Assembly: GCA_002687175.1 (NCBI GenBank) | Contig: NYZP01000001.1 | Coordinates: 149,607 to 213,606, forward strand | Reading direction: 5' to 3' | DNA: 64,000 nt | From: Parcubacteria group bacterium | Lineage (GTDB): Bacteria; Patescibacteriota; Patescibacteriia; Buchananbacterales; UBA6539 | Shown here: piece by piece, positions 3,300 through 51,979 of the stretch | Layout of the letters: each line of letters begins with the position of its first letter | Position numbering within the stretch: the stretch's first letter is position 1 | Notes under the pieces: model-generated | The model's input: the letters and a program-made list of their open reading frames with translations, nothing else | What the model was told of the DNA's origin: nothing | Databases searched by the model: none | Program-made: the position numbers and the translations under genes

Positions 3300-5852
3300 T
3301 TACTCAACACCTCCATCAATTATCCCACCGGTAGTTTCATTGCTTGGACTACTTTTACGAAATTTAAGAAAATAAACAAACAACACGATGCCAGCGATAG
3401 TAAAGATAAAAGCCAATATGATGTAAATAAAAATTTGTTTACTTTGAGCACTGCTACGGGCAGATCGTTGAGCGGCAATAAATTCTTCTGGTGAAACCGC
3501 TTTAGCTTCTTCAATCAAAAAACTCAACGGATTACTCTTAGCAATAATCTTGCCTGTATTATCATTAACTGTCAGATAAATTTCGTGCTTACCGTCAACC
3601 AATGATCGTTGTAAGGTATATTCCCAGTTACCAAACTTATCTACATTGACCGTTACTACCAGAGGTAAATCACTATAAATATAAAGCGTCACGACACTAT
3701 CAGGAAAAGCTAATCCAGAAAATTTTTGGACTGTTATCCCCTCGGCGGCAAGTTTCACATCTTCAACATTTGTCACAATTAATTGACGGGAGATTGCTCC
3801 AGCTACTTTCGGCTGCTCGATGATTGCTTTATTAACTAACGCCTGCTCTGCCGGGGTTAAGTTGATTAGTAGATCACCACCGCCAGAGGGATTAAGATTT
3901 TTTCTTAATTCATCACCGTCAATAAACCCATCAGAATCAGTGTCCGCCAAAAATGGATTTGTTCCCAAACGACGTTCAATTTCATCGGATACTCCATCAC
4001 TATCACTATCAAAAATAATTACTGCCGAGGGAGTTTGCACTATTTCGTCGCGTTCGTTTAATAAAACCTGACTAACAGATGGTAGCAAAGTTATATTTGT
4101 GTCATCTTCAATAACAATTGGTACAAAATTTTCTATGCTATCTTCGGCCACTTCCTCGGTAACCTTTTGCAGGGTTACCGTTTGATTATTATTTTCTAGA
4201 ATTATTTCTTCAATAATTTGGTTCTGCTGCTGAATAATAATAAGATCATTTAAATGTCGTTCACGAAGTGCTCGGCTACATGTTTGGTCGTCCAGACCAT
4301 TGCAAGTAACGTCTGTTGCGTAGGTTTCTAAAATATGATCTTGACAAGCATCCACATCTGTTTTATCGGCCAAAGAACATTCTACATCAAGATATTGTTC
4401 ATTTAAATACTCATCACAGACACTCTGGTCAAGGATATTTGCACTCAAACATTCAGGTGATAAATAAAGTCCCGCTAAATAAATATCACAATCATCAACT
4501 GAACTAATATTTGCCTGACGACATTCATCTGGCAAAAAAGTATTTTTCAAAAACTGGTCACACTGTTCTTGATTTGTTATATTTGCTTCGATGCATTGTT
4601 GAGGAAGTAGGTTTTCTGGTGAGTCATCAATTAGTTGATTACTAATCTCAAATAAAAATCTGTTACAAGCATCGAAATCTACAATACCAGCAATAGCACA
4701 CTCTTCGGCAATCTCCGGATTAACCCTGTCCGGTTCTGGTTCTGGTTCCGGCTCTGGTTCTGTAGTTGATTCATTAAATTCCGTATCATCTTCCGGACTG
4801 TCACAATCAAAATCAACTAAATCGGTGTACCCATCACCATCGTTATCAAAACCGTCGGAACACTGTGTTGTTGTCTCTGGTTCTGGCGGTGGCGGTGGCG
4901 CTTCGGTTGGTTCATTAAACTCGTTATTATCTTCCGAATTGTCACAACCTGGATCATTAAGATCTATCAAGCCATCACCATCATTATCAATATAATCTGC
5001 ACAGGCAGTAACAAGAGTCGTAATAACATTTTGAATGTTAAAATTAATCTGGCTGCTAGCAAAATCTGGCGGATCATTAATAATCGCTTCGGCCAATAAA
5101 TTGTATGAACCGTCAGAAACACTATTAGTATCATATAAAATTTCCCAGCTTTCATCAGCTAACTGACTGGCAGAGCCAAGTGGTATATTACCAATACCAC
5201 TGACTAAAACAAAAGACAAAGAGTCAACTGGAATATTTGTTTCAGCATTAAATATTGTAATACCAGAAACTGTTGCTTCATTAACTGGTTCTTTAATTGT
5301 CACAGCAAGAGATTCCGTGATTGGGTTAGAAACTTCAACTGAAATTGGATCACTCCGGTAGGGGGATCCATCACTATCATCATAGGCAACTATAGTTATT
5401 GAGTAAGATTGATTAATCTCTCCTTCTGTCGACCAAACACCCTCCCAAAAAATATCATTCAAAGTTGTTGAAAGACGATAAACGCTTTCAGATTCTATCT
5501 CAAATTCAACATTTATCGGTTCTATCCCAAAAACTGTTGCCGAAAGTTCTTCTAGACCGGTGAGGATACTACCCTCAATTGGTGTTATAAAGGTAAATTC
5601 AACTGCGCCAGAACTAGAAAAACTACTTACATCAAACTCCTCATTATCTTCCAGGCTGACACAACCTGGATCATCTGGATAATCAATGAAACCGTTACCA
5701 TCATTATCAATGCCGTCTGTGCATTCGGTAAGTGTATTAGTACTTTGGGCAAATAAAATAGGGGTTGGTAAGACCCCAAATAAAGTAGCCAAAACAGCTA
5801 ACAAAAAAATAAAAAAAGTTGTATAAACTAGCTTAGATACAAACCTACTCAT
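3300..5852 (-). CDS. Large secreted/cell-surface protein with signal peptide, Asp-rich Ca-binding-type repeats, five tandem ~22-aa Cys repeats and a C-terminal TM anchor
   Basis: N-terminal signal MSRFVSKLVYTTFFIFLLAVLA. Three copies of C-x-DG-x-DNDG-x-G-x-x-D...PGC, a PEPEPEPEP linker, DTDSDGFIDGDE (thrombospondin-3-like) and repeats of C-x9-11-C-D-x-(F/Y)L. C-terminal hydrophobic helix plus basic tail. Confidence 0.6.
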   Translation of the reverse strand: MSRFVSKLVYTTFFIFLLAVLATLFGVLPTPILFAQSTNTLTECTDGIDNDGNGFIDYPDDPGCVSLEDNEEFDVSSFSSSGAVEFTFITPIEGSILTGLEELSATVFGIEPINVEFEIESESVYRLSTTLNDIFWEGVWSTEGEINQSYSITIVAYDDSDGSPYRSDPISVEVSNPITESLAVTIKEPVNEATVSGITIFNAETNIPVDSLSFVLVSGIGNIPLGSASQLADESWEILYDTNSVSDGSYNLLAEAIINDPPDFASSQINFNIQNVITTLVTACADYIDNDGDGLIDLNDPGCDNSEDNNEFNEPTEAPPPPPEPETTTQCSDGFDNDGDGYTDLVDFDCDSPEDDTEFNESTTEPEPEPEPEPDRVNPEIAEECAIAGIVDFDACNRFLFEISNQLIDDSPENLLPQQCIEANITNQEQCDQFLKNTFLPDECRQANISSVDDCDIYLAGLYLSPECLSANILDQSVCDEYLNEQYLDVECSLADKTDVDACQDHILETYATDVTCNGLDDQTCSRALRERHLNDLIIIQQQNQIIEEIILENNNQTVTLQKVTEEVAEDSIENFVPIVIEDDTNITLLPSVSQVLLNERDEIVQTPSAVIIFDSDSDGVSDEIERRLGTNPFLADTDSDGFIDGDELRKNLNPSGGGDLLINLTPAEQALVNKAIIEQPKVAGAISRQLIVTNVEDVKLAAEGITVQKFSGLAFPDSVVTLYIYSDLPLVVTVNVDKFGNWEYTLQRSLVDGKHEIYLTVNDNTGKIIAKSNPLSFLIEEAKAVSPEEFIAAQRSARSSAQSKQIFIYIILAFIFTIAGIVLFVYFLKFRKSSPSNETTGGIIDGGVE

Positions 5853-27587: not shown

Positions 27588-28751
27588 TTACCTAAAAATA
27601 TTTGGATTAATTTTTATAATTTTATCGTCATTAAAACGCATGGTACCCCGACCATCGGTATTAGAAGTAGTTAAGTACATAAATCCGGCATTGTCTAAAA
27701 CCACTGCCCTCAACCGACCAAACTCTTGAAAAAAATGAGAACTAAGTTCACCGCTAGCTAAACTAAATTCATATAAAGCTTCGCCACGTAAACCGGCAAA
27801 AAAGATACTGTCATTCCAAAAAATTGCTCCGGCCGGGGCCCAAGTAACATCTGGACCAGAGTGAATTCGCGGGGAAATCATTTCGACTTCTTCTTCGTCC
27901 CCTTGAACAACCGGCCAACCATAATTCTTACCAGGCTCAATTAAGTTCAATTCATCTAAACCGGAAAGTGCTCCTGATCGGCCATGTTCGGTAATCCATA
28001 GTCGATCAAATCGATCCCAAACTAACCCTTGAGGATTACGGTGACCATAAGAGTAAATCTCTGTACCAAAAGGATTATCTTCAGGCACTGAACCATCAGC
28101 ATTAAGCCGTAAAATTTTACCACCTAAGTAATCTAGATCCTGAGCCTTGTCACTTTGACCGGCATCACCAGTAGTGATATATAATTTATCATCAGGGCCA
28201 AATTCAATTCGACCACCATCATGAAAACGAGCCCCGGGAATATTATCAATAATTATGGTCTTATTTTCTAAACTGTTGCCAACTAATTGATAGCGTTCAA
28301 CTCGATTGATCAAACCATCTTTGGTCTTGGTGGTTAAGTATAAATAGATTAAATTATTATTAACAAAATCAGGATGTAAGGCCAATCCCTGTAAACCACC
28401 TTCACCAACATGCTCTACCCCAGAAATTTTAATCACCGTTCTGTCTTGGCCAATTTTTAATAAATTACCTGGTCGTTCGGTAACTAATAACTCACCAGTT
28501 GGTAAAAAAGTTATCTCCCAAGGTATTTGAAGGTCACTGACAATTATTTCGATATCTTCGGTTTCTGCCATTTCCTCTGAACTGACACCAATGTTGCCAC
28601 TTGGACCAGTTGGTGTAAAAACTTCAACTACAATTTTTTGACGAAAAAAATAAGCACCTGTTAAAATAATGGCCGCCGAAATAATTATAATTAATAAAGC
28701 TTTTTTTCCGCCAGAGGCGGATCCGCCTTTGGCGGACATATTATCTTTCAT
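27588..28751 (-). CDS. Soluble glucose/sorbosone dehydrogenase-like (PQQ-type) beta-propeller protein with N-terminal TM anchor
   Basis: GLQGLALHPDF, NRVERY, HDGGRIEFGPDDKLYITTGDAG, GKILRLNADGS.P.DNPF, YSYGHRNPQGLVWD, ITEHG. Confidence 0.6.
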   Translation of the reverse strand: MKDNMSAKGGSASGGKKALLIIIISAAIILTGAYFFRQKIVVEVFTPTGPSGNIGVSSEEMAETEDIEIIVSDLQIPWEITFLPTGELLVTERPGNLLKIGQDRTVIKISGVEHVGEGGLQGLALHPDFVNNNLIYLYLTTKTKDGLINRVERYQLVGNSLENKTIIIDNIPGARFHDGGRIEFGPDDKLYITTGDAGQSDKAQDLDYLGGKILRLNADGSVPEDNPFGTEIYSYGHRNPQGLVWDRFDRLWITEHGRSGALSGLDELNLIEPGKNYGWPVVQGDEEEVEMISPRIHSGPDVTWAPAGAIFWNDSIFFAGLRGEALYEFSLASGELSSHFFQEFGRLRAVVLDNAGFMYLTTSNTDGRGTMRFNDDKIIKINPNIFR

Positions 28752-42497: not shown

Positions 42498-42522
42498 AAT
42501 TTTTACTAAAATAAGCCATCCG

Positions 42523-42594
42523 CTCCGAGGGCCGGATTCGAACCGGCAACCAATTGATTAACAGTCAACTGCTCTACCATTGAGCTACCTCGGA
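42523..42594 (-). tRNA. tRNA-Asn(GTT), copy A
   Basis: Minus strand reads TCCGAGGTAGCTCAATGGTAGAGCAGTTGACTGTTAATCAATTGGTTGCCGGTTCGAATCCGGCCCTCGGAG. Anticodon loop is CUGUUAA. Confidence 0.85.
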
Positions 42595-42683
42595 GCACAT
42601 GGCTCATTTTTTACTCTATTGCGCTATATTCTAATTTTAAAGTCTTTGACGGAAACCGGTCGGTCAGAAACGCTTCCGGTCTC

Positions 42684-42755
42684 CTCCGGGGGTCGGATTC
42701 GAACCGACAACCAATTGATTAACAGTCAACTGCTCTACCGTTGAGCTACCCCGGA
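42684..42755 (-). tRNA. tRNA-Asn(GTT), copy B (variant stems)
   Basis: Same fold with compensatory changes (CCCCGGA..GTCGG/CCGAC). Confidence 0.8.
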
Positions 42756-42845
42756 GCACATGGCTCATTTTTTTGCTCTACAAACTATATTTTAAATTTT
42801 CAAGCCCCTGACAGGAACCGGTCGCTTTGGAAAGCGTCCGATCTC

Positions 42846-42917
42846 CTCCGAGGGCCGGATTCGAACCGGCAACCAATTGATTAACAGTCAACTGCTCTAC
42901 CATTGAGCTACCTCGGA
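42846..42917 (-). tRNA. tRNA-Asn(GTT), copy C
   Basis: Identical to copy A. Confidence 0.85.
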
Positions 42918-42957
42918 ACTTAATTCTCCTTAATTACTTTTACCTTCTAAACCTTGA

Positions 42958-44227: not shown

Positions 44228-46015
44228 TTATTCTAAAACATTTAACTGAGCAATGACTTGATTAAATTGCTCAATTAATTTTTTTACTTCTTCACTCTCT
44301 CCTTTGTTTTCCGCCGTTTTTATCTGTCCTTCAATTTCTTTAAGTTGAAAATTATAATGATTTTCTTTACAAAACTTAGTTGCTTTAATCAACTCATCTC
44401 TAATTATTTCTGAATCGAAATCAAAAAAATCCTTCTCTGCCAAGAGAACGAGTTTATCAGCAATGACATCGAGGCTGTCGGCTTTAAGTTTATTATGAAA
44501 TTCTTGATAATCAAAATTATCTATATTATTATCAATGTCTTCAGTATAGTAAATAATGAGCTTTTTGTAAAGGTCATTTAAACTATCATCAATAAATATT
44601 TCTGGTTCTAGGTTATCAATTAGATAAGGCAGATTTATCGGATATTTTAAAACCATGGCTAAAACCTGCTCCAACAACATTGTATTACGACTTTTAGTTA
44701 CCTGAACAGTGGCTTCAGTTTTTTCAGGAGATTTTTCTGGTTCTGATTTTGGTAAAGACTCACGTAAGATTGATTCAGTAACATTTAATAAGCTGGATAA
44801 TTTTTGTAGCCAATGGGTCTGTTCTATTTTGTTACTTATTTTGTTGATGATTGGCAACAATATTTTGGCGGCTTCTTTTTTACCCTCAACATTACCTAAA
44901 TTAATACGGTCTAAAGTTTGATCAAAGTAATAATCCATGATTGACTTAGCATTTTTATTAGCTTCTTCCCAAACCTTTTTATCAGCTTTAATAACATCGT
45001 CTGGATCTTTACCGTCAGGCAACACAATAATTTTAACATTTAGATCTTCAGATAAAGCTAAAGCAATGCCCCGCTTAGCGGCTGATTCACCGGCAACATC
45101 AGTGTCAAAAGCAATTTTAATATTTTTAGTATATCTTTTCAATAATTTAAGTTGATCTAAAGTAAAAGCCGTTCCTGATGCTGCAATAACGTTCTTTGTT
45201 CCAGCCTGCCAAGCAGCTAAAACATCCATTTGACCTTCAACCACAATGGCGTAATCATTTTTTTTAATATACTCCTTGGCTTTATCTAAATTATAAATAA
45301 CTAAACTTTTATTATAGACTAAAGTTTGTGGCGTGTTGATATATTTACCACCTTTTTCATCAGTTTTTAAAGCTCGGGCAGAAAAACCAACTGGACTACC
45401 ATGAGCATCATTGATCGGAAACATTAAACGACCACGGAACCGATCATAAAATCCTTGACCTCGTTCTTTCTTAACCGTTAAACCAGCTAAAAATATTTCT
45501 TGCTCATTGAAACCTTTACTCTTCAGATGGTTAAACATGTTACCCCAAGAATCATGAGCATAACCTAATTTAAATTCTTCCGTTGTTTCTTTATTAAGTT
45601 GACGATCATTAATTAAATATTCATTAATTTTCTTTGCCGATTCTGGCTTTAAATTCTCAGACCAAAATCTGGATGCCTCTTGGCAAATATCTAAAATCTT
45701 ATTCTTCTGACTGGCTAGCTTTGGATCTTGCGCTACCAACTTGACTCCAGCTTTTTGGGCTAACAGTCTTAAAGCCTCTGGAAAATCCATCCCTTCCATC
45801 TTCTGGACAAACGTAAAAATATCACCGCCTTCACTACAGCCAAAACAATGAAAAATTTGTTTGTCTTTAGAAACAACAAAAGATGGAGTTTTTTCATTAT
45901 GAAAAGGACATAGCGCTTTCCAGCTATTTGTTCCCGCTTGTTTTAGCCTAATATATTCTGAAACTAACTCAACTATATCAAGTCTATTTTTTATCTCTTC
46001 ACTTTGATTCGCCAT
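44228..46015 (-). CDS. dnaG: DNA primase
   Basis: Zinc finger [25 protein letters not shown] and a TOPRIM domain. Confidence 0.9.
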
Positions 46016-46123
46016 AAAAGTATTGTCATTGTACTCTAATTATCGTTATTTAGGCAAGAAGACTTTGACTAATTAGTGATTTTCTGCTTTAATAGTATAG
46101 TATTAAAAACTTTTCATAATAGA

Positions 46124-46185
46124 GTGGAGGGGTGCCCCCGGCAGCTTGCCCCGTTGAAGAACGGGGCCGGGGCAGGCTCCGTGGT
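46124..46185 (+). other. Degenerate GC-enriched tRNA-Ser-like fragment
   Basis: GGAGGGGTGCC...CTTG...GGGGCAGGCTCCGTGGTC shares its start and the CTCCGTGG block with the tRNA-Ser at 46544 but lacks a T-loop. Confidence 0.35.
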
Positions 46186-46208
46186 CTATAAATATTTATT
46201 AAGAACAA

Positions 46209-46247
46209 AGCGGAGGGGTGCCAGAGTGGTCGAATGGGACAGTCTTG
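46209..46247 (+). repeat. Exact 39-nt duplicate of the 5' half of tRNA-Ser(TGA), truncated inside the anticodon loop
   Basis: AGCGGAGGGGTGCCAGAGTGGTCGAATGGGACAGTCTTG is identical to 46541-46579. The copy ends after CTTG of the anticodon loop and is followed by two GC hairpins (CCCGCC-agag-GCGGG and TCCGCC-ttcg-GCGGA). Confidence 0.85.
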
Positions 46248-46295
46248 CCCGCCAGAGGCGGGTCCGCCTTCGGCGGAAAAACAACTACCTTGAGT

Positions 46296-46580
46296 ATGCC
46301 TTGCACTTATATTTTATATAGTAGGTCAACCAACAAATTTTATACTGGATCAAGCAGAGAAAAAGCCGCTAATAATCGTTTAAAATCACATAACGCCGGA
46401 AAAACTAAATCGACAAAAGCTGGCCGTCCCTGGATAATTATTCATCAAGAAAAATACCAAAATTATACTGATGCCAGAAAAAGAGAAATTTTTTTAAAAT
46501 CAGGTCAAGGACGCAAATATATTAAAACTTTAAACAGCAGAGCGGAGGGGTGCCAGAGTGGTCGAATGGGACAGTCTTGA
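46296..46580 (+). CDS. GIY-YIG nuclease family protein (~94 aa); its 3' end overlaps the 5' half of tRNA-Ser
   Basis: MPCTYILYSRSTNKFYTGSSREKAANNRLKSHNAGK...RPWIIIHQEKYQNYTDARKREIFLKSGQGRKYI gives the GIY...YIG...R...E...N pattern. Confidence 0.55.
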   Translation: MPCTYILYSRSTNKFYTGSSREKAANNRLKSHNAGKTKSTKAGRPWIIIHQEKYQNYTDARKREIFLKSGQGRKYIKTLNSRAEGCQSGRMGQS

Positions 46581-46630
46581 AAACTGTTGAGGCAGCAATG
46601 TCTCCGTGGGTTCGAATCCCACTCCCTCCG
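46544..46630 (+). tRNA. tRNA-Ser(TGA)
   Basis: GGAGGGG-TG-CCAGAGTGGTCGAATGGG-ACAGTC-TTGAAAA-..., long variable arm, GTGGGTTCGAATCCCAC T-arm. No encoded CCA. Confidence 0.85.
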
Positions 46631-46656
46631 CTCTGCTGTTTATTTAACTTATAAGA

Positions 46657-46748
<92 letters not shown>

Positions 46749-46766
46749 TTTTACATTCAGCGAAAT

Positions 46767-48119
46767 ATGGTAGACTCAGCAATAGAACGCGCGCAAAACG
46801 AAAACGAAAACTACGATCGCCTTATTGGCGAGAAAAAAATATTAGAATACCTCAATACTGTATTGAAAGGAGAAAAACCTGAATCGTTTATTGCGCGGCC
46901 AATGAGCCAAGATTGCAAAGTAGCTGTAATGATTCCTGCCTATAATGAAAGTGCGTCAAATATCTTGCGTTCTTTGTCATCTTTAGCAGAACAAGAAGAA
47001 GTCGACCCTAATTTATTTGAGGTTGATTTGGTTGTAAACAATCGCAGAATTGATGCCGAGCAAAACACTCCTGCGTTTTTAGCAAATCAAGAATCAATAA
47101 GATTAATAAAATACATAAATGGCGAATCTCAAGAAATACCAGAAGGTTTAACTACTGAACAAGCTGAACAGATAGAAAAAATAAGAAAGGCGGAAATAAA
47201 AATCAACGTCATTGATAAATCTTCAGTAAATACATCAGATGAAGAAAATAATGTTGGCGTCGCAAGAGATAGGGCTGGGGCTGAAATCCTTGATAGGTTT
47301 ATGAAATCGTCTGGCAACACAGAGGGCGCTCTTGCAATCACTGATTGCGACTGCACATTTTCCCGCAATTTTATAAAGTCGTTAATTCAGTCATTTGAAC
47401 AACATAAAATCAACGGGGTTTCTGGTAATTTAGAGTTTGAAATTGATTCCTCATTGCCCAACCAAGAGTTGATTAAAAAAGCTTTTGATATTTATATGGG
47501 TAAGAACGGGCCCAAACAAGATTATTCAGGTGAGCCTAATTTCAAAATTCAAAAAGAAGGTGCCCTGCAAGCCGGTGCGAATATGGCTGTAACCGCAAAG
47601 GCGTGGGCAATGGTTAATGGAATGCCTAGAATCGCTGGCGGTGAAGATATTCGCTTTGGCAAAAATATTGAAGATTTACGGGGACAAGTAGCAAAAAATT
47701 ACGACTACACTATTACATCCCTTATACGCGTTTCAGAGCGTACCGGCTTGCAGGGCAATGGAAGAATAGTTAAAAAAATAAAAGAATCCGTGGACGATTT
47801 TGTTGCGGGTAAAACAGATAGAATCGTTGTTGAAGATAGAGAAATGGTTGATAAATTTTTTAATGGAGTTTTACGAGCAAATGAAAGTAAGGCGTTAAAA
47901 GGAAAATTATTTTTAGATTTAATGAAAGAATGCAATTTTAAACAAAATAATATTCCTGAGGCAGAATACGATGAACTGGCAAGTGAAATTAATACAGAAT
48001 TGGAAAAACCAAGGTCGGAGCAAGAATTGAAAAAGATTGAAAGATTGATTTTAGAGAAAATTTATCCTTACTATCCAGAAAGAGATGTAACTGATAAAAT
48101 AGTAAAGAAAGAATCTTAG
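46767..48119 (+). CDS. Glycosyltransferase family 2-like protein
   Basis: VAVMIPAYNESASNILRSLSSL GT2 N-terminal motif and ITDCDC. Start taken at the first ATG after the tRNA, since the ORF-track start at 46689 overlaps the tRNA. Confidence 0.5.
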   Translation: MVDSAIERAQNENENYDRLIGEKKILEYLNTVLKGEKPESFIARPMSQDCKVAVMIPAYNESASNILRSLSSLAEQEEVDPNLFEVDLVVNNRRIDAEQNTPAFLANQESIRLIKYINGESQEIPEGLTTEQAEQIEKIRKAEIKINVIDKSSVNTSDEENNVGVARDRAGAEILDRFMKSSGNTEGALAITDCDCTFSRNFIKSLIQSFEQHKINGVSGNLEFEIDSSLPNQELIKKAFDIYMGKNGPKQDYSGEPNFKIQKEGALQAGANMAVTAKAWAMVNGMPRIAGGEDIRFGKNIEDLRGQVAKNYDYTITSLIRVSERTGLQGNGRIVKKIKESVDDFVAGKTDRIVVEDREMVDKFFNGVLRANESKALKGKLFLDLMKECNFKQNNIPEAEYDELASEINTELEKPRSEQELKKIERLILEKIYPYYPERDVTDKIVKKES

Positions 48120-48469
48120 GCGGCGCGCCAACTTCGTTGGCACGAAATTCGGCGACGGCGGAAAGCGAGGGCGGGCAAAAATTCCTTCCCCCCCCCAACC
48201 CCCTTCCTTTTTGCCCGCCCGAGCGTTGGGGTGGGAAGCGGCTCGTCTCTGCGTCAGCAGAGAAGCAAAGCTCGCAAAAATTGTTTCCTTAATTAAAATT
48301 TGCGCGCGCCCATTAAAAGAAAAAGAAATTTTTGCGAGCTTTGCTGGCCGCCGTCAGGCGGCGAGCCGATGGGCGGGTTCACTCAGCGAAATCCGTAGGA
48401 TTTTGCTCAAACATTGTTCGAACTTCGTCCAAAAAACACCGCCACTATTAAAAATCTAAAAAATTATTT
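48120..48469. other. GC-rich, ORF-free, hairpin-dense block of undetermined family between convergent genes
   Basis: UUCG hairpin GCCAAC-ttcg-GTTGGC. Long stem GCGAGGGCGGGCAAAAA...TTTTTGCCCGCCCGAGCG enclosing a C9 run (..TTCCCCCCCCCAACCCCC..). CTCTGC-gtca-GCAGAG and GCCGCC-gtca-GGCGGC hairpins. A ~20-bp long-range pair GAAGCAAAGCTCGCAAAAATT / AATTTTTGCGAGCTTTGC. Shares CCGCCGTCAGGC and the CCCCCAA(A)CCCCC motif with block 24766-25213. Confidence 0.4.
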
Positions 48470-51168: not shown

Positions 51169-51293
51169 GGGCTTGTAGCTCAGGGGTAGAGCGTCTGAGA
51201 CCAACATTTTAATCAATCAGTGAGGGTACCCGATCTGTGCGATGATGTTGGAAAATCAGAAAGTCAGGGGTTCAAATCCCTTCAGGCCCACCA
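51169..51293 (+). tRNA. tRNA (Ile-like acceptor and T-arm) with a ~50-nt intervening sequence in the anticodon loop; anticodon unresolved
   Basis: GGGCTTG-TA-GCTCAGGGGTAGAGC-G-TCTGA-[57 nt: GACCAACAT...ATGTTGGAAAA]-TCAGA-AAGTC-AGGGGTTCAAATCCCTT-CAGGCCC-A-CCA. The insert has a 7-bp stem CCAACAT/ATGTTGG. Followed by TTTTTT. Confidence 0.55.
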
Positions 51294-51310
51294 TTTTTTG
51301 TTCTTAAAGA

Positions 51311-51390
51311 GCTGGGGTAGCTCAGTGGTAGAGCTGTTGACTTCTTCGGATAGTTGATGGTCGGGGGTTCAAATCCCTCCTCCAGCTCCA
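51311..51390 (+). tRNA. Atypical tRNA, candidate tRNA-Arg(UCG) with an apparently extended (8-bp, G:U-rich) anticodon stem
   Basis: GCTGGGG-TA-GCTC-AGTGGTA-GAGC, anticodon loop CUUCGGA, GGGGG-TTCAAAT-CCCTC T-arm, CTCCAGC-T-CCA. There are 28 nt between the D and T stems where 22-23 are expected. Direct repeat GTTGA...GTTGA. Confidence 0.45.
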
Positions 51391-51394
51391 ATTA

Positions 51395-51953
51395 CTTTTG
51401 ATCCGGTCCCCGCTGAAAAGTGGCGATACGTCTATTTGACAGAACCGAGGGGTTCTCCAAACAGAGAAGACAGGGTAATGTCACCGGATCTTGGAACGGA
51501 TGTCCTCGGACATAGTGTTCTCCCCCTATCTAGGGCGAACTAATGCGCAAGCATTATTACTTCAGACTTTGGTCTGACCGTTCCGCCAATGTTTCAACTT
51601 TGTCTCGAATTCGCAAGAGGCGAGACGAGTTGACCCCGGACACTCAGACTGCACCCCCAGCCTGAGTGTCCACTCTACATTTTTTCCAGCCTGAATCCCT
51701 TGCGGCCAGGCTGTCACCTGGGGTCACCTGGATAACCCGAGTCTGGGTGACCCCTCTATTACAATGTCCCGCGCTCAAGCGCTTGGCATAGGCACATCTT
51801 TATCTTCAAAAGCCCAAACAAACTCGACGAGACCATGATTTGGTGCAACCCTTCAAAAGAGGATCCCGGGATTCTCTGGCGCTAGGCGTTCAATCCTTTC
51901 ATGTCTTTCGAAAAAAAATCGCTCTTAGCTGTGAGCGGCGTAACGGGCTCCTA
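51395..51953 (+). other. GC-rich, ORF-free, hairpin-dense block ending in a plus-strand terminator; candidate structured RNA of undetermined family
   Basis: Perfect 10-bp hairpin GGACACTCAG-actgcacccccagc-CTGAGTGTCC, GGGTCACC...GGTGACCC, GTCTCG-aattcgcaagag-GCGAGAC, GAACC-gagg-GGTTC. No RNase P (GGAAAGTCCGGGC / ACAGAA..GCTTA in the right order), tmRNA or SRP (GGAAGGAAGCAGC) hallmark was found by eye. Confidence 0.4.
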
Positions 51954-51979
51954 GAAGGTGATGTGCCTTCTTTTTTTAC
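51954..51979 (+). terminator. Intrinsic terminator
   Basis: AGAAGG-tgatgtg-CCTTCT followed by TTTTTT. Overlaps the ligA stop on the opposite strand. Confidence 0.5.

What the first reader, a model, noticed from the sequence alone, without database searches (positions are those of the whole stretch)
46120..46640. GIY-YIG nuclease gene inserted at tRNA-Ser(TGA) with a partial and a degenerate upstream tRNA copy
The 39-nt 5' half of tRNA-Ser(TGA) is duplicated exactly 332 bp upstream and is cut precisely in the anticodon loop. Two GC hairpins follow, then a ~94-aa GIY-YIG nuclease ORF whose 3' end reads into the intact tRNA. Further upstream is a GC-enriched, T-loop-less relic of the same tRNA. 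This resembles the footprint of a homing-endonuclease or intron-like mobile element, or of repeated integrase activity at a tRNA-Ser.
Basis: seen in the sequence. Interest (0 to 1): 0.7.

Follow-up and report, generated by a model that had tools for sequence, protein, structure and literature searches.

The report
Selfish mini-nuclease cassette invading tRNA genes
A tiny nuclease gene with a 30-base double-hairpin has inserted into the serine tRNA gene of this ultra-small bacterium, leaving dead tRNA fragments upstream and one working tRNA; the same layout recurs beside tRNA genes in many bacterial phyla and seems not to have been described.

Summary
A 39-nt exact repeat (46209-46247 = 46541-46579) ends between anticodon bases 2 and 3 of tRNA-Ser(TGA). 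Two GC hairpins follow it. A 94-aa GIY-YIG ORF (46296-46580) then runs into the intact tRNA and stops on its anticodon TGA. Three independent assemblies agree.

This is not a one-off. Of 93 homologous ORF copies in 80 genomes from about ten phyla, 77 lie directly beside a same-strand tRNA and 9 more are inner copies of tandem arrays. The far side of the ORF usually carries a partial copy of that same tRNA, interrupted in its D, anticodon or T loop by a conserved 30-nt double-hairpin module.

A syntenic relative (dnaG, same promoter) has the empty site. Others show decayed or ORF-deleted versions, with nested tRNA halves stacked like Russian dolls.

A second module copy in this window sits in-frame just after the start codon of a housekeeping gene. 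It is absent from that gene's 119 closest homologues.

The protein is a catalytic-domain-only nuclease, closest to UPF0213 and Slx1. No ribozyme or integrase is present.

Best reading: a selfish, tRNA-gene-targeting GIY-YIG cassette expressed from the tRNA promoter. The mobility mechanism is inferred, not shown. Seven searches of the open-access library found no description of it.

The parts
46065..46093 (+). Putative promoter of the tRNA-Ser operon (TTGACT, 17 nt, TTTAAT). It probably drives everything downstream, including the nuclease ORF.
   Evidence: Read from the sequence. TTGAC and CTTTAATAGTA are invariant in the four syntenic dnaG/tRNA-Ser loci WIN, L081, L082 and L086. The consensus scanner did not list it because the second hexamer has T at position 2. 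Function is inferred.
46101..46136 (+). Oldest fossil: the native tRNA leader plus tRNA-Ser nt 1-11 (GGAGGGGTGCC, 46126-46136), still at the original distance from the promoter.
   Evidence: Alignment to the leader and 5' end of the intact tRNA scores 42, against a shuffle maximum of 33. It is one of three copies of repeat family D1. Its start aligns with the tRNA start of the empty-site locus L081.
46137..46186 (+). 45-nt GC-rich hairpin cluster (46137-46181) inserted in the D-arm of the fossil, followed by TGGTC (possibly tRNA nt 16-20). The fossil then stops.
   Evidence: Inverted repeat I7. The fold shows an 8-bp GCCCCGUU/AACGGGGC hairpin. Similarity to the remainder of the tRNA is not significant. 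D-loop hairpin inserts are common in pseudo-tRNAs of related loci.
46209..46247 (+). Pseudo-tRNA 5' half: a 39-nt exact copy of 46541-46579 (3 nt of leader plus tRNA nt 1-36), ending after anticodon base 2.
   Evidence: The same breakpoint (nt 1-36) recurs in L002, L005, L011, L015, L047, L058, L071 and L091.
46248..46277 (+). 30-nt double-hairpin module (CCCGCC-AGA-GGCGGG, TCCGCC-TTC-GGCGGA) inserted between anticodon-loop bases CTTG and AAAAC.
   Evidence: There are 39 distinct variants in related loci, and 9 of 12 stem pairs show changes on both sides. Flanks read gtcttg^...^aaaac in 13 variants.
46278..46282 (+). AAAAC: continuation of the pseudo-tRNA anticodon loop and stem (tRNA nt 37-41). 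tRNA similarity then ends.
   Evidence: Comparison with the intact tRNA, which reads ...CTTGAAAACTGT. Relatives show the same continuation for 5-17 nt.
46296..46580 (+). GIY-YIG nuclease ORF, 94 aa, catalytic domain only. The last ~13 codons are encoded by the tRNA leader and 5' half, and the stop codon TGA is the anticodon.
   Evidence: Pfam PF01541 E 5e-11. Invariant Y5 Y16 G18 R28 H32 N33 E64 in 36 homologues. AF2 pLDDT 85 with residues 85-94 below 50. Nearest structures are UPF0213 and Slx1.
46531..46543 (+). Leader arm of a 13-bp extension of the acceptor stem. It lies inside the 3' end of the ORF.
   Evidence: Perfect 19-nt inverted repeat 46531-46549 / 46624-46642. Extensions of at least 5 bp occur in 12 of 145 tRNAs, all in invaded loci, with 10 different sequences.
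46544..46631 (+). Intact, presumably functional tRNA-Ser(TGA). Acceptor stem is GGAGGGG and CCA is not encoded.
   Evidence: ARAGORN. Rfam tRNA 55.1 bits. Empty-site relatives carry GGAGAGG plus encoded CCA instead.
46630..46642 (+). Trailer arm of the extended acceptor stem (GCTCTGCTGTTTA).
28707..28736 (-). Second copy of the 30-nt double-hairpin module. It is inserted in-frame directly after the ATG of a glucose/sorbosone dehydrogenase gene and encodes SAKGGSASGG.
   Evidence: Pfam GSDH. None of the 119 other closest homologues (56-70% identity) has the peptide; the ones printed start MKK.... The insertion site ATG^AAAAAA resembles the tRNA site CTTG^AAAAC.

Best explanation
The locus holds an intact member of a widespread, apparently undescribed family of selfish cassettes that live inside tRNA genes.

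The unit is about 330 bp. It consists of a 30-nt double-hairpin module, an 80-90-aa GIY-YIG nuclease gene (catalytic domain only, UPF0213/Slx1-like), and a replacement copy of the tRNA's leader and 5' part, possibly the whole tRNA.

Insertion splits the resident tRNA-Ser(TGA) in its anticodon loop. The displaced 5' half stays upstream as a dead fragment carrying the hairpin module. A complete tRNA is re-formed downstream, so the host keeps an essential gene.

In this window it happened at least twice. The older event left only the leader, 11 nt of tRNA and a GC hairpin.

Inferred steps:
- The cassette has no recognised promoter of its own and is transcribed from the tRNA promoter.
- The ORF reads into the tRNA. 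RNase P cleavage of the co-transcript would therefore remove its stop codon and keep nuclease levels low.
- The nuclease cuts tRNA genes, or the hairpin or cruciform DNA they form, at loop positions. The cassette is then copied into the break by recombinational repair, helped by the high conservation of tRNA sequences.
- The 30-nt module is a companion mini-element that also inserts on its own at TG^AAA-like sites.
For: Anatomy in the window.

Family-wide association:
- There are 93 ORF copies in 80 GTDB genomes, including Patescibacteria, Omnitrophota, Planctomycetota, Elusimicrobia, Bacteroidota, Ignavibacteria/Chlorobi, Verrucomicrobia, Gammaproteobacteria, Nitrospirae and Chloroflexota.
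- 63 copies have a same-strand tRNA starting within 130 nt of the ORF end.
- 14 copies have one just upstream, and 9 are inner copies of tandem arrays.

Partial copy of the local tRNA on the far side of the ORF:
- 49 of 63 upstream-type loci and 10 of 14 downstream-type loci have one.
- A GC hairpin is present there in 53 of 63 loci, against 63 of 240 control windows.
- Breakpoints and inserts recur in the D, anticodon and T loops.

Presence/absence at the same locus:
- L081 (DnaG 73% identical, same promoter) has promoter, leader and tRNA with nothing inserted.
- L086 and L082 carry ORF-less remnants.
- L091 carries a frameshifted ORF.

Nested fossils: in L086 and L089 the outer tRNAs are split at 36/37, with 5' halves stacked upstream and 3' halves stacked downstream. 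A differently sequenced inner tRNA is intact.

Tandem arrays occur in L078 (4 copies), L071, L006, L038, L058 and L075. ORF-deleted derivatives occur in L077, L086 and L089.

The module inserts independently, in-frame in a housekeeping gene, and is absent from 119 homologues. Its stems covary.

The protein has the GIY-YIG catalytic residues and fold. It has no DNA-binding domain. Its closest relatives are UPF0213 and the Slx1 structure-specific nuclease.

The neighbours are housekeeping genes. Three assemblies are identical.
Against: No biochemical or transcript data exist. Cleavage specificity, expression from the tRNA promoter and the copying mechanism are all inferred.

The protein lacks the DNA-binding domain that gives known GIY-YIG homing endonucleases their site specificity. 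Sequence-specific homing is therefore doubtful, and a structure-specific mode is only a conjecture.

The restored tRNA still contains the presumed target, so it is unclear how occupied alleles avoid re-cutting. Tandem arrays may be the consequence.

The window lacks the downstream 3'-half fossils seen in L086, L089, L091 and L071. Its exact insertion history is therefore not reconstructed.

The 13-bp leader/trailer pairing is unexplained by a simple 'element carries only the 5' half' model.

No relatives were found in 2.9 million viral contigs, so no vector for spread between phyla is known.

ORF identity of 57-64% across phyla may reflect constraint rather than transfer.
Confidence: 0.7

Rival explanations
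1. The nuclease is a host-serving, tRNA-linked factor, for example a tRNA-processing or quality-control nuclease. Alternatively it is a toxin whose upstream hairpin-blocked pseudo-tRNA acts as an RNA decoy or antitoxin. On this view the tRNA fragments arise from local tandem duplication rather than from mobility.
For: Tight same-strand linkage to tRNAs and probable co-transcription. Hairpins sit exactly in the loops of the pseudo-tRNA, as expected for an uncleavable substrate mimic. The UPF0213/Slx1 branch has been linked to RNA metabolism through a TrmH fusion (PMC1564403). The catalytic residues are conserved.
Against: Close syntenic relatives lack it (L081), have lost the ORF (L082, L086, L089) or carry a frameshifted copy (L091). 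It sits beside many different tRNAs in different lineages, in tandem arrays of up to four, with nested fossils. Most pseudo-tRNAs lack a 3' half and could not fold as tRNA mimics.
Confidence: 0.12
2. The mobile agent is the 30-nt palindromic module, a REP/RPE/MITE-like element moved by some other enzyme. The GIY-YIG gene is then a passenger, or merely sits where pseudo-tRNAs accumulate.
For: The module occurs without the ORF in a protein-coding gene of this window. Modules nest inside other modules in L012 and L006. Insertion leaves no target duplication and uses a short TG^AAA / TTC^GAA-like site. This is reminiscent of hairpin elements moved by HUH transposases (own knowledge).
Against: The module alone does not explain the duplicated tRNA halves, the ORF's constant position and orientation next to tRNAs, or the tandem ORF arrays. 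No HUH or other transposase is present in the 64-kb window's neighbourhood. The whole genome was not searched.
Confidence: 0.1
3. The upstream 5' half, the inserted segment and the downstream 3' half together form one intron-containing or split tRNA gene, with the insert (group I-like or protein-spliced) removed at the RNA level.
For: The break is in the anticodon loop at canonical position 35/36. That is the position where group I introns are enriched in Patescibacteria tRNAs (PMC13011429). In L086 and L089 the two arms of hairpin 1 flank the cargo, as complementary sequences flank archaeal split tRNA halves.
Against: Rfam finds no ribozyme at E<=10. The non-ORF insert is only about 50 nt. 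ARAGORN in intron mode predicts none. A complete uninterrupted tRNA is present, so splicing is unnecessary. Outer copies accumulate further D- and T-loop inserts and mutations, as expected of dead genes.
Confidence: 0.03
4. These are remnants of repeated site-specific integration and excision by a tyrosine or serine integrase element using tRNA-Ser as its attachment site.
For: tRNA genes are classical integration sites and partial tRNA repeats flank integrated islands (own knowledge). The repeat here is exact.
Against: No integrase lies nearby. The 'island' is 332 bp. The 5' rather than the 3' part of the tRNA is duplicated. The same structure in about 80 genomes always contains the GIY-YIG ORF and no recombinase.
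Confidence: 0.03
5. Assembly duplication or a chimeric contig.
For: Short repeats can be mis-assembled in metagenomes.
Against: Three independent assemblies are identical across both repeat copies. The architecture recurs in unrelated genomes.
Confidence: 0.01

Closest known systems
Free-standing GIY-YIG homing endonucleases of phage T4, especially SegB in the tRNA gene cluster (PMC2330249)
   Same: A GIY-YIG nuclease gene that is not inside an intron. It sits among tRNA genes and is inherited preferentially, together with flanking tRNA sequence, through cleavage and repair.
   Different: Seg proteins are longer and carry DNA-binding domains, whereas this protein is the bare ~80-aa catalytic domain. 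SegB lies between tRNA genes and does not split one or leave tRNA halves. Seg proteins are phage-borne, while this family is chromosomal and was not found in IMG/VR. By sequence the protein is closer to UPF0213 and Slx1 than to I-TevI.
Mobile GIY-YIG ORF with duplicated gene end and GC-rich double-hairpin elements in Allomyces mitochondrial DNA (Paquin, Laforest and Lang; own knowledge, cited in papers found)
   Same: The endonuclease ORF arrives together with a replacement piece of the host gene. This creates a hybrid functional gene and a displaced pseudo-fragment. Short GC-rich double hairpins accompany the element and are themselves mobile.
   Different: That case is mitochondrial and involves the protein-coding gene atp6, whose 3' end is replaced. 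Here the host is bacterial, the target is a tRNA gene, and either the 5' or the 3' part is replaced. Sequence homology of the hairpins was not tested.
UPF0213 (YhbQ/EF2693/BH0048) and the Slx1 nuclease domain
   Same: Best sequence and fold matches: 1YWL E 8e-9, 1ZG2 E 2e-7, and Slx1 at rmsd 2.3-2.5 A over 71-74 columns. The bacterial members share the domain-only architecture.
   Different: No tRNA-gene linkage or mobility was found reported for UPF0213. Slx1 needs Slx4 and a RING domain. No NCBIfam model names this subfamily.
Palindromic mini-elements that insert in-frame or at hairpins: Rickettsia palindromic elements, and REP elements with RAYT transposases (own knowledge)
   Same: Short GC-rich palindromes spread within a genome. 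They can sit in-frame in protein genes (28707-28736 in this window) and leave no target duplication.
   Different: The module is only 30 nt, built as two 15-nt hairpins. It is linked to a GIY-YIG gene rather than an HUH transposase. It prefers loops of tRNA-gene copies.
Integrative elements and Dada-type transposons that target tRNA genes and carry a tRNA piece to restore them (own knowledge)
   Same: The strategy is the same: land in a conserved, essential small-RNA gene and bring the missing part so the gene stays functional.
   Different: Those elements use integrases or DDE transposases and usually duplicate the 3' part. They are kilobases long.

Membership tests
GIY-YIG nuclease superfamily | Match to Pfam PF01541 above the curated cutoff | tested here: met
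   43.2 bits against a cutoff of 22.6, E 5e-11, residues 2-73.
GIY-YIG nuclease superfamily | Conserved catalytic residues (Tyr of GIY, Tyr of YIG, Arg, His/Asn, Glu) | tested here: met
   Y5, Y16, G18, R28, H32, N33 and E64 are invariant in 36 homologues.
GIY-YIG nuclease superfamily | Three-stranded sheet flanked by helices (GIY-YIG fold) | tested here: met
   AF2 model with pLDDT 85. Top Foldseek hits are BH0048, Slx1, the I-TevI catalytic domain and the UvrC N-domain.
UPF0213 / Slx1-like branch | Closer in sequence to UPF0213 and Slx1 than to intron-encoded enzymes, with a stand-alone domain | tested here: met
   1YWL 7.7e-9, 1ZG2 1.9e-7, Slx1 homologue 1.8e-3, I-TevI 0.38. No extra domain.
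UPF0213 / Slx1-like branch | Structure-specific cleavage of branched or hairpin DNA | not testable with these tools
   Requires biochemistry.
Homing endonuclease gene (free-standing) | Presence/absence polymorphism at the same genomic site in relatives | tested here: met
   Empty site in L081. Occupied, decayed or ORF-less alleles in WIN, L091, L082, L086 and L089.
Homing endonuclease gene (free-standing) | Separate DNA-binding domain giving a long specific target (as in I-TevI and the Seg proteins) | tested here: not met
   Only the ~75-aa catalytic domain is present. The C-terminal residues are translated tRNA with pLDDT below 50.
Homing endonuclease gene (free-standing) | Cleavage of the empty allele, and copying with co-conversion of flanks | tested here: inconclusive
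   Cleavage is not testable here. There is a hint of co-conversion: tRNAs at occupied sites share GGAGGGG, no CCA and an extended stem, whereas empty sites have GGAGAGG plus CCA. In L089 the dead outer tRNA is of the resident type and the live inner tRNA of the other type.
Group I (or other self-splicing) intron in a tRNA | Ribozyme core detectable; the tRNA is complete only after splicing | tested here: not met
   No intron family at E<=10. ARAGORN intron mode finds none. An uninterrupted tRNA is present.
Integrase-mediated island at a tRNA | Recombinase gene in the element; direct repeat of the tRNA 3' part | tested here: not met
   Neighbours are housekeeping genes. The repeat is the 5' part.
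REP/RAYT or IS200/IS605-like hairpin elements | Hairpin-bearing element inserted at a short specific site without target duplication | tested here: met
   The module's flanks are continuous with the uninterrupted tRNA or gene sequence. Sites read TG^AAA, TTG^AAG and TTC^GAA.
REP/RAYT or IS200/IS605-like hairpin elements | HUH (Y1) transposase partner | not tested
   None was seen near the locus. The rest of the genome is not available.

The most novel reading that the evidence does not exclude
This would be a previously unrecognised class of minimal bacterial mobile element. An ~80-aa Slx1-like, structure-specific GIY-YIG nuclease and a 30-nt double-hairpin would together invade the loops of tRNA genes, as cruciform or hairpin DNA.

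The element brings a replacement tRNA, so the host becomes dependent on it. It leaves nested tRNA halves as a fossil record of serial invasions. The 30-nt hairpin is its non-autonomous derivative and also lands in-frame in protein genes.

In L091 and L071 the whole module-bearing anticodon arm is duplicated on both sides of the cargo. That is what cutting at the base of an extruded cruciform would produce.
Probability: 0.35. Interest if true: 0.85.

Novelty: new variant of a known kind. Interest (0 to 1): 0.75.

Why it matters
If correct, tRNA genes in many bacterial phyla host a very small selfish element that standard annotation reports only as 'GIY-YIG nuclease family protein' plus an ordinary tRNA.

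It would explain several things:
- stray tRNA halves and GC hairpins next to tRNA genes;
- peptide strings such as GGSASGGK or ADPPLAE at the ends of predicted proteins;
- some tRNA gene replacements between lineages.

A nuclease of about 80 residues that finds tRNA genes without a DNA-binding domain would be a new way for a homing-type element to choose its target. It could interest enzymologists. The nested halves also give a datable record of invasions in genomes that cannot be cultured.

Tried and rejected
Searches that found nothing:
- Rfam at E<=10 on 45900-46900 gave only the two tRNAs and chance hits.
- ARAGORN allowing introns up to 400 nt called no split tRNA.
- NCBIfam and PHROGs had no family for the protein.
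- IMG/VR viral contigs held no relatives, so phage carriage was dropped.
- Pfam on eight neighbouring genes found no integrase or transposase.

Readings tested and dropped:
That stretch was reclassified as a hairpin insert.
- The extended leader/trailer stem was tested as a universal feature and is not. Only 12 of 145 tRNAs have it, mostly in Patescibacteria relatives.
- The consensus promoter scan listed three sites inside the ORF, against 1.7 +/- 1.5 expected, which is not significant. It missed the conserved TTGACT-17-TTTAAT.

Literature: seven full-text searches and two papers read gave no description of a bacterial tRNA-splitting GIY-YIG cassette. The UPF0213/YhbQ search was uninformative.

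Not attempted:
- a single generative model covering all topologies (W-ORF-T, W-ORF-T-X, T-ORF-X, and nested forms);
- family size in the 1.84-billion-protein library;
- a host-versus-ORF phylogeny.
Full report
**What is in the window**

ARAGORN and Rfam place tRNA-Ser(TGA) at 46544-46631 and tRNA-Ser(GGA) at 46657-46746, both on the + strand. They lie downstream of a divergently transcribed dnaG (44228-46015, minus strand; Pfam primase domains).

A 39-nt stretch, 46209-46247, is identical to 46541-46579. It comprises 3 nt of leader and tRNA nt 1-36. It stops between the second and third anticodon bases (CTTG|A).

Directly after it come two perfect hairpins of 6 bp with 3-nt loops: CCCGCC-AGA-GGCGGG and TCCGCC-TTC-GGCGGA, at 46248-46277. 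Next comes AAAAC, which is exactly how the tRNA anticodon loop continues. The hairpins are therefore an insertion inside a partial tRNA copy, not simply 'followed by' it.

An ORF (ATG 46296 to TGA 46580, 94 aa) matches Pfam GIY-YIG at E 5e-11. It runs through the tRNA leader and 5' half and stops on the anticodon.

Further upstream, 46101-46136 repeats the leader and the first 11-13 nt of the tRNA (score 42; shuffle mean 19, maximum 33). The GC-rich 46137-46181 that follows is not significantly similar to the rest of the tRNA (72 of 500 shuffles). It is best read as a hairpin insert in the D-arm.

Two other assemblies of the same organism are 100% identical over 46029-46714 and 46032-46622. 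The structure is therefore not an assembly artefact.

**The protein**

Thirty-six homologues share invariant Y5, Y16, G18, R28, H32, N33 and E64.

A profile built from them finds the structural-genomics proteins EF2693 and BH0048 (UPF0213; E 8e-9 and 2e-7), then an Slx1 homologue (2e-3). I-TevI scores only 0.38.

The AF2 model (pLDDT 85) is a bare GIY-YIG core. The last ten residues, which are translated tRNA, fall below pLDDT 50. Foldseek puts BH0048, the Slx1 nuclease domain (rmsd 2.3-2.5 A) and the I-TevI catalytic domain on top.

There is no DNA-binding domain. No NCBIfam or PHROGs family matches.

**The pattern is family-wide**

A scan of one genome per GTDB species found at least 570 relatives. 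I examined the best 80 loci. By record title they come from Patescibacteria, Omnitrophota, Planctomycetota, Elusimicrobia, Bacteroidota, Ignavibacteria/Chlorobi, Verrucomicrobia, Gammaproteobacteria, Nitrospirae, Chloroflexota and others.

Position of the 93 ORF copies relative to tRNA genes:

| Position | Copies |
|---|---|
| Same-strand tRNA starting within 130 nt of the ORF end | 63 |
| Same-strand tRNA just upstream only | 14 |
| Inner copy of a tandem array | 9 |
| Other (tRNA slightly further away, or none detected) | 7 |

Serine tRNAs dominate, with 48 copies. Arg, Met, Thr, Tyr, Gln, Asn, Lys, Ala and Glu tRNAs also occur.

On the far side of the ORF there is usually a fragment of that same local tRNA: 49 of 63 upstream-type loci and 10 of 14 downstream-type loci. 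A GC hairpin is present there in 53 of 63 loci, against 63 of 240 control windows.

About a third of the homologous proteins end in translated tRNA (…CQSG…, …WPSG…). Some begin with translated hairpins (…ARGGSAxGGK…).

**The hairpin module**

The insert is a 30-nt unit of two 15-nt hairpins. I collected 39 distinct variants. Nine of the 12 stem pairs show changes on both sides: 54 cells, against 12.6 +/- 2.5 in shuffles. The set was selected for pairing, so the percentage paired is circular. The matched variation is not.

The flanks place it in tRNA loops:

| Site | Flanks | Distinct variants |
|---|---|---|
| Anticodon loop, canonical 35/36 | gtcttg^aaaac | 13 |
| D loop | ggttg^aagg | 10 |
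| T loop | ggttc^gaatcc | 9 |
| Start of the D loop | — | 3 |

Bacteroidota mostly use a 20-nt perfect palindrome, CCTGCCTGCCGGCAGGCAGG, in the D loop instead.

The sequence on both sides of the module always matches the local tRNA. Modules can be nested in the loops of other modules, as in L012 and L006.

The window holds a second copy at 28707-28736 on the minus strand. It is inserted in-frame right after the ATG of a glucose/sorbosone dehydrogenase gene, giving M-SAKGGSASGG-KKALL… None of the 119 other closest homologues has these ten residues; the ones printed begin MKK…. The site, ATG^AAAAAA, resembles the anticodon-loop site CTTG^AAAAC.

**Evidence for insertion and decay**

A metagenome scan with the window's own tRNA sequence returned 13 loci. 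Three of them share the dnaG/tRNA-Ser synteny (DnaG 66-75% identical) and the same promoter region, with TTGAC and CTTTAATAGTA invariant.

- **L081 is the empty site.** It has promoter, about 30 nt of leader, and an intact tRNA with acceptor GGAGAGG and encoded CCA. In the alignment, the window's oldest fossil starts where the L081 tRNA starts. Everything from 46137 to 46543 is therefore inserted material.
- **L086 has no ORF** but has two stacked 5' halves, each ending …GTCTTG. An intact tRNA follows, then stacked 3' halves each starting AAAACTGTT….
- **L089 shows a resident-type tRNA (GGAGAGG…CCA) split at 36/37.** Between its halves lie one arm of hairpin 1, an ORF remnant, a different intact tRNA (GGAGGGG, no CCA), the other arm of hairpin 1, and hairpin 2. 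The dead outer copy has gained further D- and T-loop inserts.
- **L091, the closest occupied relative,** has a frameshifted ORF. The module-bearing anticodon arm is repeated on both sides of the ORF-plus-tRNA cargo. L071 shows the same with two tandem units.
- **L078 has four identical units** with a 300-nt period. L077 has ORF-deleted units.

These are the usual marks of a selfish element: patchy presence, internal deletions, pseudogenes, arrays and nesting.

**A further feature**

In the window, 13 nt of leader (inside the ORF's 3' end) pair perfectly with 13 nt of trailer. This extends the acceptor stem to about 20 bp.

Extensions of at least 5 bp occur in 12 of 145 tRNAs surveyed. All are in invaded loci. 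They have ten different sequences, and L086 and L089 differ by a compensatory change. Empty-site tRNAs lack the extension.

It may be an RNase III-type processing helix that frees the tRNA from the mRNA. Alternatively it may be a trace of fold-back repair. I cannot tell which.

**How it probably works**

Shown here:
- the anatomy of the locus;
- the linkage to tRNA genes;
- the empty site;
- the fossils;
- the independent insertion of the module;
- the nuclease fold.

Inferred:
- The cassette is transcribed from the tRNA promoter.
- The ORF's overlap with the tRNA means RNase P processing competes with complete translation.
- The nuclease cuts tRNA genes, or the hairpins they and the module form, at loop positions.
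- The cassette is copied into the break by recombination, using the conserved tRNA sequence as homology.
- The incoming unit supplies the part of the tRNA, or the whole tRNA, that keeps the host viable.

The absence of a DNA-binding domain, the kinship to Slx1, and the use of all three cloverleaf loops point to recognition of structure rather than of a long sequence. This is conjecture.

**Rivals considered**

- **A host-serving or toxin/decoy system (0.12).** This fits the linkage but not the patchiness, arrays and decay.
- **The module as the real mobile agent, with the ORF a passenger (0.10).** This does not explain the duplicated tRNA halves or the ORF arrays.
- **An intron or split tRNA (0.03).** There is no ribozyme, no predicted intron, and no need for splicing.
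- **An integrase footprint (0.03).** There is no recombinase, and the wrong half of the tRNA is duplicated.
- **Assembly error (0.01).** Excluded.

**Comparison with what is known**

- **T4 SegB** is a free-standing GIY-YIG homing endonuclease in a tRNA cluster (PMC2330249). It is larger, phage-borne, and does not split a tRNA.
- **The Allomyces mitochondrial GIY-YIG ORF** brings a replacement atp6 end and is accompanied by mobile GC-rich double-hairpin elements. This is the closest analogue in logic (own knowledge; literature located).
- **Group I introns in Patescibacteria tRNAs** cluster at the same 35/36 position. The paper reporting this mentions neither GIY-YIG genes, hairpins nor tRNA fragments (PMC13011429).
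- **The GIY-YIG superfamily survey** notes only a TrmH fusion for the Slx1 cluster (PMC1564403).

Seven full-text searches found no description of this arrangement. The library covers only open-access papers and preprints, so an existing description cannot be excluded.

**Verdict**

The feature is an intact member of a widespread tRNA-gene-invading GIY-YIG cassette with a companion double-hairpin module. I class it as a new variant of a known kind: free-standing homing-type nuclease elements that restore their target gene. There is a fair chance that it represents a new class.

Interest is 0.75.

Noticed in passing
window 28707-28736 (- strand), in ORF 27588-28751: A second copy of the 30-nt double-hairpin module is inserted in-frame directly after the start codon of a glucose/sorbosone dehydrogenase gene. 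It adds SAKGGSASGG. All 119 other closest homologues lack it.
   Followed up: yes
window 51169-51290 (+): A tRNA-like gene (Rfam tRNA 53.7 bits) carries about 50 extra nt in place of the anticodon loop. Default ARAGORN misses it. In intron mode ARAGORN calls it tRNA-Ser(gga) with a 48-nt insert at 31/32. It is too short for a group I intron.
   Followed up: partly
window 51311-51390 (+): 'tRNA-Lys(ctt)' is 80 nt long, with six extra bases forming a CTTCGG tetraloop-like extension of the anticodon arm. A weak YrlA (Y RNA-like) hit, E 0.011, spans 51239-51367.
   Followed up: partly
window 51400-51960 and 48120-48400: Non-coding blocks of 50-57% GC sit in a ~35-40% GC genome. No Rfam match at E<=0.1 for the first, and only chance-level hits for the second. 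They may be unrecognised structured RNAs or further element debris.
   Followed up: partly
window 42522-42918 (- strand): Three tandem tRNA-Asn(gtt) genes with a ~161-nt period. The spacers share sequence, and none has an intron or module.
   Followed up: no
window 46531-46549 / 46624-46642; also L091, L082, L086, L089, L072, L079, L022: Perfect 8-13-bp pairing of tRNA leader with trailer extends the acceptor stem to about 20 bp. The sequences differ from locus to locus, and it occurs only at invaded tRNAs. It may be a processing helix or a trace of fold-back repair.
   Followed up: partly
L089 ~4240-4270 and window 46747-46770: The 20-nt flank AGTTTTACATTCAGCGAAAT follows the dead outer tRNA-Ser(TGA) in L089 and the live tRNA-Ser(GGA) in the window. 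This suggests recombination between 3' ends of different serine tRNA genes.
   Followed up: no
L012 2227-2500; L006 1964-2088: Double-hairpin modules are nested inside the loops of other modules, several deep. Hairpin loops in general may therefore be insertion targets.
   Followed up: partly
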